From contig CM022671.1 in assembly GCA_012295275.1 (NCBI GenBank), positions 29,822,001 through 29,886,000 on the forward strand: a stretch of DNA of 64,000 bases, read 5' to 3'. This DNA comes from Chrysomallon squamiferum (lineage: Eukaryota; Animalia; Mollusca). Both the position numbers and the translations under genes were made by a program. A model generated the notes under the pieces. The model was not told the DNA's origin, did not search any database, and saw only the letters and a program-made list of their open reading frames with translations. Shown in pieces: positions 24,301 through 27,300 of this stretch (positions within the stretch are counted from its first letter, which is position 1; each line of letters opens with the position of its first letter).

Positions 24301-27300
24301 CGGATGGAGGTAAAAGTATCGCTCTTGGTGACTACAGTGCAACATGGCGACTGCACAGGAAACTAGCAACGAAAGCTCTGAGGTATTTCACTTATTATCT
24401 TTTGTGATACAAATACAGCTCTGCAGATATATACGTATGATAATAGTATATATAAAGTTATTGAAACATTTTACCTCCAAAGATGTCACCAATAGTTTGT
24501 CTAACATGTTCGTTTTTTTATCTGTGACATAACCTTCTCATCTTCCTGGTATATTATTTCTTTCCCAGCCAGCAAATACTGTCAGTAAAATCTCTCAAGC
24601 TGTCTAAAGAAAAAAACAAACAAAAAAACACACACACACACACACAACACACACACACACACATTTCAGAAGTGAAATATATATATAAATAAAACACTTG
24701 AAAATACTATTAACGTTTATGAACTATAAAGATATATAATTATCCGTTGACTTTAACTTAATCATCATGCACAATTTAATGCCATGTTTAATACATTATT
24801 TACAGACGGTACATATCTGGTGATCATCTGGAACACAAACTCACCGATTCTCTTGGGAAAGTTATAGAAGCCATTGAAAAGGTGAAGGGACCCGTAAACC
24901 CACACAAGTTTAATTCTCTTGTTGCCTTCAACATTCTGTTTGGCGTCTGCTTCGGTGAAACGTGAGTTTGAAATTTGATGAACGTTAAGTAGGAGAAGAA
25001 TCAGTAAAGTTTGAATTTTATAAACGTTAAGTAGGACAAAAATCAATCAAGTATCAAGGCTAATAAAAATAAAAGTAGCGAAACAATGCTGTATACAATT
25101 TTATATGTAATAGAATGGAAGACGTAGGATGCTAATTATTTTATAACAATGTAAACAAAATTAAAAATTAAAAAATGTATCAGTTGAAGATAATGGCAGC
25201 GGCGAAAGCAACATGCATCTGCTGCTCATTTTAGCCTGGACCAATGATTTGTTCATAATGACAGTTATATCAATCTAAGTAATGGTGGTCCTTCTTCAAA
25301 AAGCATGCATCCACACTCTTAAAATGATAAGCACAATTACATATTTTTAATAAGAAAAATTGAGGAACTTCATTTTCAAAAGGAAGACATAAAATAATGT
25401 TTTTTAGATGCATTATTTTAGCAATCATATTTTTAAATCTGAGAAAATATAGAAGAGACTTCACTTGTACGGTAGTTTTCTCAGTATGAGAATATAATGA
25501 TTTTCAAAAGGAACCCTCTTTGAAATAACACATTTTGTTAAAGCTTAATCGTACGAATCATGTATTAAAACTGTTTTGTATGAAAATAGACCATTGTTTA
25601 AAATCATTAAAAAAAGGTTTCAATACAAAACTAAACTTATATTTCAGATGTTCTATTGATGATCCACTGTTTAACAAAATGCTTGGCATGTTTGATGAAT
25701 TTCTCACATCGTTTGGAAACGGACCTTTGGAAGACATTATTCCTCCATTGCGTTTATTCCCGACCAAACTAATGAGAAGAATGATTGAAGTGTTTGACGA
25801 ACTGTTCGGCATTTTTGACAAATTCATCGAAGACCATAGAAGAACTTTTTCTGCAGGTAGTTCCTAGCCATTTCTGTATTTTTCTTGATTTCATAAAAAT
25901 ACCCAGCATTTATAAAAGATACCTCTAACGTATCTGTTAAACAAGAAAATTATAAGCTTTGATGGAGACTGAGATTGGATTTTCACGTTTTTCTATATTT
26001 TGATTATTACAGTCTAAATGTACCATTATTATTATTATTTTTAAAAATTCCTCTTTCTTTTCTTAAGCTTTTTTGTTGTTTTTGACTTCTGATTTTTTTT
26101 CTTTAGACAACTTGAGAGACTTTACTGACAGTATTTTGCTGGCTCAGAAGGAGATTATGGATGAGGAGGATGAGAAGGTGATGTCACAGATAACAAACGA
26201 ACATGTTAGACAAACTATTGGTGACATCTTTGGAGGTAAAATATTTCAATAACTTTATATATATACCATTACCATACGTATTAGAAACAGTGAAAGAGAT
26301 AGTCACTGGTATCATACGTATCAGCAACCTTGAAAGAGATAACTTTATATACTATCACCATACGTATTAGAAACAGTGAAAGAGATACTCTCTGGTATCA
26401 TACGTATTAGAAACAGTGAAAGAGATACACTCTGGTATCATACGTATTTGAAACAATGAAAGAGATACACTCTGGTATCATACATATTTGAAACAGTGAA
26501 AGAGATACACTTTGGTATCATACGTATTTGAAACGGCGAAGGAGATACACTCTGGTATCATGCGTATTAGAAACGGTGAAAGAGATACACTCTGGTATCA
26601 TGCGTATTAGAAACGGCGAAAGAGATACACTCTGGTATCATACGTATTTGAAACGGTGAAAGAGATACACTCTGGTATCATATGTATTAGAAATGGCGAA
26701 AGAGGTACACTCTGGTATCATACGTATTTGAAACGGTGAAAGACATACACTCTGGTATCATACGTATTTGAAACGGTGAAAGAGATACACTCTGGTATCA
26801 TACGTATTTGAAACGGTGAAGGAGATACACTCTGGTATCATACGTATTTGAAACGGTGAAAGAGATACACTCTGGTATCATACGTATTTGAAACAGTGAA
26901 GGAGATAAACTCTGGTATCATACGTATTTGAAACAGCGAAAGAGATACACTCTGGTATCATACGTATTTGAAACAGCGAAAGAGATACACTCTGGTATTA
27001 TACGTATTAGAAACGGCGAAGGAGATACTCTCTGGTATTATACGTATTAGAAACGGTGAAAGAGATACACTCTGGTATCATACGAATTTGAAACGGTGAA
27101 GGAGATAATACCTTTGCATTAAACGCGACACATAGTAATAATGATATCTGTTGTTAGGTTTATGGCTAATTTGTACGAGAAGCAATTTGTAAAATACCCG
27201 CATACATTTCATATACTTTATTCTACAATATCGTGTTGAAGATGGAAGTTTTGATGGAAGTTTTAAAATGGTTTGAAATTGAATATTTGTTTAGTCTCAC

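What the first reader, a model, noticed from the sequence alone, without database searches (positions are those of the whole stretch)
24431..26280. Antisense copy of exon 8, with both splice sites, embedded in intron 5 of the same P450 gene: a potential built-in RNA duplex
Seen: 24431-24616 is the reverse complement of exon 8 (26107-26235) plus its acceptor tract and about 45 nt of the downstream intron. There is a 41-nt perfect match ending at the exon-8 donor, and near-perfect pairing across the donor itself. Copy B has the same element (38879-39060); copy C intron 5 (48977-49211) lacks it. Inference: the pre-mRNA could fold into a ~180-bp duplex that loops out exons 6-7 and masks exon 8. 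Exon 8 is 129 nt, so it can be skipped in frame, and it encodes the start of the I-helix. Established: intronic complementary sequences direct ADAR A-to-I editing, promote exon skipping and back-splicing, and long hairpins can yield endo-siRNAs, which here could target all three paralogues.
Basis: partly seen in the sequence, partly recalled or inferred. Interest (0 to 1): 0.78.

Follow-up and report, generated by a model that had tools for sequence, protein, structure and literature searches.

The report
Backwards exon copy in snail P450
Two neighbouring P450 genes of what is likely a vent snail each carry a real backwards copy of their own exon 8 inside intron 5; it is predicted to pair with that exon in unspliced RNA, but it is decaying and the RNA contigs seen are normally spliced and unedited, so it is most likely a tolerated DNA-copying scar.

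Summary
24431-24616 is a reverse copy of exon 8 plus both flanking intron ends (about 89% identical; a 48-nt perfect block spans the donor). Paralogue B has it too; C lacks it. A duplex is strongly predicted (-248 kcal/mol; 173 of 186 bases paired in the 1.9-kb fold).

Function is not supported. RNA contigs from 3 of 3 laid runs join exons 7-8-9. One is 100% identical to copy A. All five A>G sites are gene B letters or also occur in the presumed DNA run. Elements A and B differ at 11.6%, against 9.5% for other introns. Element B pairs better with exon 8 of A than with its own. Changes are not enriched for G-U pairs. One haplotype has a 6-nt deletion in the perfect block. Molluscs reportedly lack the endo-siRNA pathway.

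Best reading: a template-switch insertion at a palindromic 8-mer, patchily refreshed by gene conversion, and likely tolerated because intron 5 ends 1.3 kb before exon 8. Contigs cannot exclude rare skipping, editing or circles. It resembles the human CHM and MANBA inverted duplications, and this scan noted the same layout before (12 notes, at least 9 genomes).

The parts
21318..28858 (+). P450 copy A (CYP17-like by source labels of relatives), 11 coding exons, 517 aa, intact
   Evidence: gene model; PF00067; closest proteins Gigantopelta aegis, 81-83% over the last exon; exons 4-8 joined in an RNA contig
24383..24805 (+). Intron 5 of copy A (423 nt), host of the element; spliced GT..AG in RNA contigs of X1, X2 and X3
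24431..24616 (-). Element A: inverted copy of about 13 nt of intron-7 end, exon 8 and about 45 nt of intron-8 start; as a pseudo-exon it has two frameshifts and stops. Weak likeness may extend through the (AC)n tract to about 24676
24431..24438 (.). Palindromic 8-mer ATACGTAT at the left junction, identical to 26274-26281 at the end of the copied arm; candidate priming microhomology (inferred)
24468..24515 (-). 48-nt perfect block complementary to 26195-26242 (last 41 nt of exon 8 plus donor); one X5 haplotype has a 6-nt deletion at 24492 inside it
24806..25856 (+). Exons 6 (24806-24961) and 7 (25648-25856), which would lie in the loop; 365 nt together, not a multiple of 3
26094..26281 (+). 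Partner arm: exon 8 of A (26107-26235) with acceptor tract and start of intron 8
35587..41953 (+). P450 copy B, 11 exons, 517 aa, intact; exon 8 at 40348-40476
38879..39062 (-). Element B in intron 5 of copy B; no indel in the exon part but one in-frame stop; closer to exon 8 of A (7.0% different) than to its own (14.4% including flanks)
45817..51274 (-). P450 copy C, convergent with B, intact ORF; intron 5 (48977-49211) lacks the element; exon 8 at 47357-47485

Best explanation
The element is a real inverted copy of the gene's own exon 8 with its intron flanks, likely made by a DNA replication or repair template switch in the ancestor of copies A and B, and it likely persists as a tolerated, decaying scar rather than a working RNA switch. 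Shown: the copy, its extent, its A/B-type source, its decay, and normal exon 7-8-9 splicing in the RNA contigs. Inferred: a strand ending at a palindromic ATACGTAT-like site in intron 5 annealed to the same palindrome in intron 8, copied about 190-245 nt backwards through exon 8 and returned; later gene conversion between element, exon 8 and the paralogues refreshed patches of it, including the 48-nt block. Inferred reason for tolerance: intron 5 is complete 1,302 nt (A) or 1,108 nt (B) before exon 8 is transcribed, so co-transcriptional splicing would usually remove one arm before the other exists.
For: Intron sequence on both sides of the copied exon means a DNA-level copy, not a retrocopy. 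At 8 sites where C differs from both A and B, both elements carry the A/B letter (site table). The left junction falls on the shared palindromic 8-mer. A-versus-B divergence of the element is 20/172 (11.6%) against 279/2941 (9.5%) for nine other introns (Fisher p 0.35); the exon-derived part is 20/128 (15.6%, p 0.03, faster). Of 18 private substitutions 5 keep a G-U pair (5 of 11 transitions; no enrichment). Element B follows 0 of the 4 exon changes unique to B (26175, 26176, 26179, 26182 in A numbering) and pairs better with exon 8 of A (-270.7) than with its own (-236.6). X1 gives one 1677-nt contig with 0 differences over exons 4-8 of A, running on into exon 9; X2 and X3 give B-type contigs that include exon 8. 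One A-type X5 contig (1 substitution in 150 nt, whereas B differs from A at 11 places there) lacks 6 nt of the perfect block. Element A shares the A/B letter at 26129 and 26217 and the A-only letter at 26174, where element B has the C letter, which is hard to get without conversion.
Against: Conservation is uneven in the direction a donor-masking function would predict: element A has 16 differences in 100 nt on the acceptor side and 0 in 48 nt across the donor (Fisher p 0.0015, boundary chosen after the fact; a run of 48 or more arises in 3.8% of random placements), and the 92 nt around the left junction differ at 1 site between A and B (p 0.003 against introns). Conversion explains this but was not separated from selection. 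X2 has a contig that runs 17 nt past the exon-7 donor (depth 15, against 22 for the spliced joint) and retains a short intron-6 remnant. Contigs drop rare forms; tissue and stage are unknown; no other species could be compared; splicing order was not measured.
Confidence: 0.65

Rival explanations
1. The duplex forms in a minority of transcripts where intron 5 is removed late, giving unselected side products (exon-8 or exon-6-8 skipping, intron-7 retention, a 365-nt exon 6-7 circle, scattered ADAR editing) that slightly lower output of A and B. It shares the origin of the best explanation and differs in having a measurable RNA effect.
For: Very stable predicted helix covering both splice sites. 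Human CHM and MANBA inverted duplications go with exon skipping (PMC8756506, PMC6549551; passages). The arms flank exons 6-7 as in circRNA-promoting inverted repeats (established knowledge). ADAR homologues are reported in lophotrochozoans (PMC6651903, search listing). X2 shows read-through past the exon-7 donor.
Against: No skip or back-splice joint and no unexplained A>G in contigs of 3 of 3 RNA runs. In CHM the copy is 1,752 bp and sits in the intron directly after the exon; here it is about 186 nt, about 10% diverged and three introns upstream. The X2 contigs leave both A and B sequence, so they may come from a different allele.
Confidence: 0.22
2. The donor-pairing part is kept by selection as a dosage switch: when transcription is fast or splicing slow (cold, stress), it masks the exon-8 donor and routes transcripts of the duplicated genes to skipping and decay, or to an in-frame P450 lacking the first half of the I-helix.
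For: 48-nt perfect block across the donor in A; element A matches A/B-type exon letters at 3 sites; near-identity of the 92-nt left tract between A and B; presence in both paralogues.
Against: Element B has 3 mismatches in the same block and does not follow B's exon changes; an X5 haplotype has a deletion in the block; no G-U enrichment; similar near-identical A/B tracts occur elsewhere (99% over 426 nt around exon 2), so conversion suffices; the major mRNA includes exon 8.
Confidence: 0.09
3. The hairpin is diced into endo-siRNAs that silence all three paralogues.
For: Element RNA is predicted to pair with exon 8 of A, B and C (-218 to -271 kcal/mol).
Against: DICER2 and siRNA Argonautes are reported lost in Mollusca, with no endo-siRNA signature in oyster (PMC11114477, passages); a mollusc-wide survey found no dedicated endo-siRNA pathway (PMC12479628, abstract). 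The arms are 1.5 kb apart in a nuclear pre-mRNA.
Confidence: 0.02

Closest known systems
Human CHM exon-12 intragenic inverted duplication (PMC8756506; passages read)
   Same: Inverted copy of one exon with intron flanks inside the same gene; junction microhomology (8 bp there, a palindromic 8-mer here); FoSTeS/MMBIR origin proposed; pre-mRNA hairpin predicted.
   Different: There the copy is 1,752 bp, in the intron directly downstream, private to a family, and exon skipping is observed. Here it is about 186 nt, about 10% diverged, three introns upstream, carried by two paralogues, and the RNA contigs include the exon.
Human MANBA intragenic inverted duplication (PMC6549551; passages read)
   Same: Template-switch inverted duplication inside one gene, with a proposed hairpin over exons.
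   Different: 13.1 kb, Alu-mediated, homozygous disease allele with no normal transcript found; here normal transcript is the only form assembled.
Inverted-Alu duplexes and exon skipping (PMC13019944; abstract read); inverted-repeat-driven circRNA (recalled)
   Same: Long-range complementary arms in a pre-mRNA enclosing exons.
   Different: The arms are not a dispersed repeat family; one arm is the exon itself with its splice sites; no skipping or circle was seen.
ADAR editing-complementary sequences such as GRIA2 Q/R (recalled)
   Same: Intronic sequence complementary to an exon of the same pre-mRNA.
   Different: Known ones are usually short, imperfect, conserved and near the site; this one is a whole-exon duplicate, decaying, and no RNA-only A>G was found.

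Membership tests
Intragenic inverted exon duplication (CHM/MANBA type) | Inverted copy of exon plus flanking intron inside the same gene | tested here: met
Intragenic inverted exon duplication (CHM/MANBA type) | Microhomology at the junctions | tested here: inconclusive
   Left junction lies on a palindromic 8-mer shared with the source arm; right junction is lost in microsatellite; the pre-insertion allele is known only from diverged copy C
Intragenic inverted exon duplication (CHM/MANBA type) | Predicted pre-mRNA hairpin over the exon | tested here: met
   173 of 186 (A) and 148 of 184 (B) element bases pair with the exon-8 arm in the minimum-energy fold
Intragenic inverted exon duplication (CHM/MANBA type) | Exon skipping as the dominant mRNA outcome | tested here: not met
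   Exon 7-8 joint and run-on into exon 9 in 3 of 3 RNA runs; rare skipping is not visible in contigs
ADAR editing-complementary sequence | RNA-only A>G differences in the paired exon | tested here: inconclusive
   None at contig level: X1 has 0 differences; 4 of 5 A>G sites in X2/X3 are B's genomic letters and the fifth is also in X5. Low-level editing not testable
ADAR editing-complementary sequence | Conservation of the pairing | tested here: not met
   Between paralogues only: intron-rate or faster decay, no G-U enrichment, element B does not follow its exon. Cross-species not testable
Inverted-repeat-driven circRNA locus | Complementary arms flanking the circularised exons | tested here: met
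   Arms in intron 5 and downstream of exon 7 enclose exons 6-7
Inverted-repeat-driven circRNA locus | Back-splice junction in RNA | tested here: inconclusive
   No backward joint in 3 RNA runs, contigs only
Hairpin endo-siRNA locus | DICER2/siRNA-Argonaute pathway and 21-22-nt duplex reads | not testable with these tools
   No genome or small-RNA run available; the pathway is reported absent in molluscs (PMC11114477, PMC12479628)
Retrocopy (processed pseudogene fragment) | Exon-exon junctions without intron sequence | tested here: not met
   Intron 7 and intron 8 sequence flank the copied exon

The most novel reading that the evidence does not exclude
A duplicated P450 has turned a replication scar into a built-in kinetic dosage valve: whether intron 5 is spliced before exon 8 emerges decides between a full enzyme and a skipped, retained or circular product, and gene conversion between the inverted arms keeps the donor-masking helix matched to the exon as it evolves.
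Probability: 0.09. Interest if true: 0.75.

Novelty: new member of a known kind. Interest (0 to 1): 0.3.

Why it matters
If neutral, it is a useful natural counter-example to CHM and MANBA: a whole-exon antisense copy with a predicted -248 kcal/mol helix is compatible with normal splicing, probably because of where it sits. That makes position versus splicing order directly testable, with copy C as a built-in control. If the switch reading were true, it would show how a regulatory RNA duplex can arise in one step and be maintained by conversion. On present evidence it is a curiosity rather than a mechanism.

Tried and rejected
No whole genome is held, so other paralogues, ADAR and Dicer genes and the genome-wide frequency of such copies were not checked. 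Only 5 runs were listed, all contigs; 3 of the 4 RNA runs plus X5 were laid, on 23500-26270 only. No RNA contig covered the element and none showed the C letter at 26154; absence in contigs proves nothing. X5's library type is not on record; I treat it as DNA because it covers 30 of 30 bins, and it need not be the individual behind any RNA run. X5 depths vary between about 80 and 165 along the gene and I could not turn them into copy numbers. 11 rows of the other-letters table, 50 loose ends and 135 contig pieces were not shown. A metagenome scan with exon 7 gave 1 weak locus among 199 candidates (L001, 59% over 22 aa), rejected as uninformative. The Gigantopelta proteins have both Ile and Val at the one amino-acid-changing diagnostic site, so they do not polarise it. 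The PDB search with exon 8 gave only a weak zebrafish Cyp17a1 match (E 0.84); the I-helix assignment rests on the recalled AGxDT motif that starts at the exon 8/9 junction. Rejected: assembly artefact (diverged, orthologous in A and B, present in X5); retrocopy (intron flanks); copy C as the source (8 C-specific letters absent from both elements). Seven literature searches listed no paper on this element; the library lacks most subscription journals and no supplements were read.

Full report
Observation. The window (29% GC) holds three intact P450 genes: A (+, 21318-28858, 517 aa), B (+, 35587-41953, 517 aa) and C (-, 51274-45817). The last exon matches Pfam P450, and its closest proteins are from Gigantopelta aegis at 81-83%, two of the three labelled steroid 17-alpha-hydroxylase-like. 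The organism is therefore likely a related vent snail (inference); enzyme function is untested. BLASTN shows that 24431-24616 in intron 5 of A is the reverse complement of 26094-26281 at 89% (E 5e-65), that B has the same element at 38879-39062, and that C intron 5 has none. TBLASTN finds no other stray exon piece in the window. The perfect block is 48 nt and spans the exon-8 donor.

Predicted structure. The arms of A pair at -248.4 kcal/mol (50 shuffles: -50.0 +/- 4.6). In a fold of the whole 1,918-nt span, 173 of 186 element bases pair with the exon-8 arm, and donor and acceptor AG are paired with probability about 1.0. B gives -236.6 and 148 of 184. This is equilibrium folding of naked RNA and ignores splicing during transcription. 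Skipping exon 8 alone keeps the frame (474 aa) but would remove the stretch leading into the AGVDT I-helix motif (motif recalled). Skipping 6-7, 7-8 or 6-8 gives early stops.

Origin. Intron sequence flanks the copied exon on both sides, so it was copied as DNA. At 8 sites where C differs from A and B, both elements carry the A/B letter, so the source was the host lineage's own exon 8. The left junction is exactly the palindrome ATACGTAT (24431-24438 and 26274-26281), which also recurs in the intron-8 minisatellite. A palindromic end can prime on either strand, which would explain the inversion (inference). The right junction is obscured by microsatellite. This fits the FoSTeS/MMBIR origin proposed for the CHM exon-12 inverted duplication (PMC8756506, passages) and for MANBA (PMC6549551, passages).

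Decay and conversion. Elements A and B differ at 20 of 172 aligned sites (11.6%), against 279 of 2941 (9.5%) for nine other introns (p 0.35); the exon-derived part differs at 20 of 128 (p 0.03, faster). Exons differ at 39 of 1515 coding sites over exons 2-11. Of 18 private substitutions, 5 keep a G-U pair, as chance gives. Element B follows none of the 4 exon-8 changes unique to B and pairs better with exon 8 of A (-270.7) than with its own. In the presumed DNA run X5, two contigs (depth 37 and 49, summing to the 82-87 of nearby intron 4) differ from the window: an A-type one has a 6-nt deletion inside the perfect block, the other has three substitutions at 24424-24445. Against a purely neutral view, element A's differences are clustered (16 in 100 nt, 0 in the next 48; p 0.0015 post hoc, 0.038 by simulation), the 92 nt at the left junction are almost identical in A and B (p 0.003), and element A shares exon letters at 26129, 26174 and 26217 where element B has the C letter. 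Gene conversion is the simplest account, since A and B are also 99% identical over 426 nt around exon 2, but selection on the donor helix is not excluded.

RNA. Five runs were listed, all contigs; three of the four RNA runs and X5 were laid on 23500-26270. X1 has one 1677-nt contig with no difference from A over exons 4-8 and GT..AG joints 4-5, 5-6, 6-7 and 7-8, continuing into exon 9. X3 has a 1778-nt B-type contig with the same joints. X2 has joints 4-5, 5-6 and 7-8 and also continues into exon 9. No skip or backward joint is listed. The RNA runs show five A>G sites: 25732, 25736, 26175 and 26176 are B's genomic letters, and 25708 is also in X5. So the dominant mRNA of both A and B types is normal and unedited. 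Contigs drop rare forms, so low-level effects are untested. X2 alone lacks the 6-7 joint, retains a roughly 45-nt remnant of B-type intron 6, and has a contig running 17 nt into intron 7. This may be a deletion allele and is unexplained.

Mechanism. Most likely (0.65) the element is a tolerated scar. Intron 5 is complete 1,302 nt (A) or 1,108 nt (B) before exon 8 begins, so co-transcriptional splicing would usually remove one arm first. In CHM the copy lies in the intron after the exon and could not be removed first. This step is inferred, not shown. Rivals are a leaky duplex with unselected side products (0.22), a selected dosage switch (0.09) and an endo-siRNA source (0.02). The last is weak because DICER2 and siRNA Argonautes are reported lost in Mollusca (PMC11114477, passages; PMC12479628, abstract).

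Novelty. The kind is known from human disease alleles and, more loosely, from inverted-Alu duplexes (PMC13019944, abstract). This scan's own notes list 12 similar findings in at least 9 genomes (8 shown, unchecked) and none near this locus or by sequence. Seven paper searches listed nothing on this element. Verdict: real feature, new member of a known kind, interest 0.3.

Noticed in passing
window 9784-19046, 31723-33490, 45207-45282: Fifteen tRNA-Lys(CTT) genes on the minus strand: ten in a tandem array with a unit of about 1 kb, four between P450 copies A and B, one after B. They appear to have been duplicated along with the P450 unit.
   Followed up: partly
window 24962-25647 (A intron 6) and 39397-39851 (B intron 6): RNA run X2 has no spliced exon 6-7 joint; its contigs join the first about 34 nt of B-type intron 6 to the last 11 nt, a roughly 45-nt retained remnant that would put a stop right after exon 6. 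Possibly a deletion allele.
   Followed up: partly
window 25827-25873: A 77-nt X2 contig (depth 15) runs 17 nt past the exon-7 donor and then leaves both A and B sequence; the loose letters were not shown.
   Followed up: no
window 41317 (B) and 46578 (C): Intron 10 begins with GC in copies B and C but GT in A, by the gene models; not checked in RNA.
   Followed up: no
window 26273-27107: A 40-bp minisatellite (20.7 copies) in intron 8 of A, most units carrying the palindrome ATACGTAT; B has a related 46-bp unit in 3.3 copies.
   Followed up: partly
window 41953-45817: B and C are convergent inverted paralogues with 3.9 kb between their stop codons; read-through transcription would form much longer duplexes than the element (last exon 88% identical).
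   Followed up: no
window 47295-49029: C's introns align with A only near exons 6-8 (81-89%), and exons 4, 6 and 8 differ by 6-8% against 12-29% for the others, suggesting past conversion between C and A/B.
   Followed up: partly
window 24552-24572: The mutation cluster in element A reads on the sense strand like a pyrimidine tract ending in CAG, a possible cryptic acceptor; RNA contigs use the normal intron-5 acceptor.
   Followed up: no
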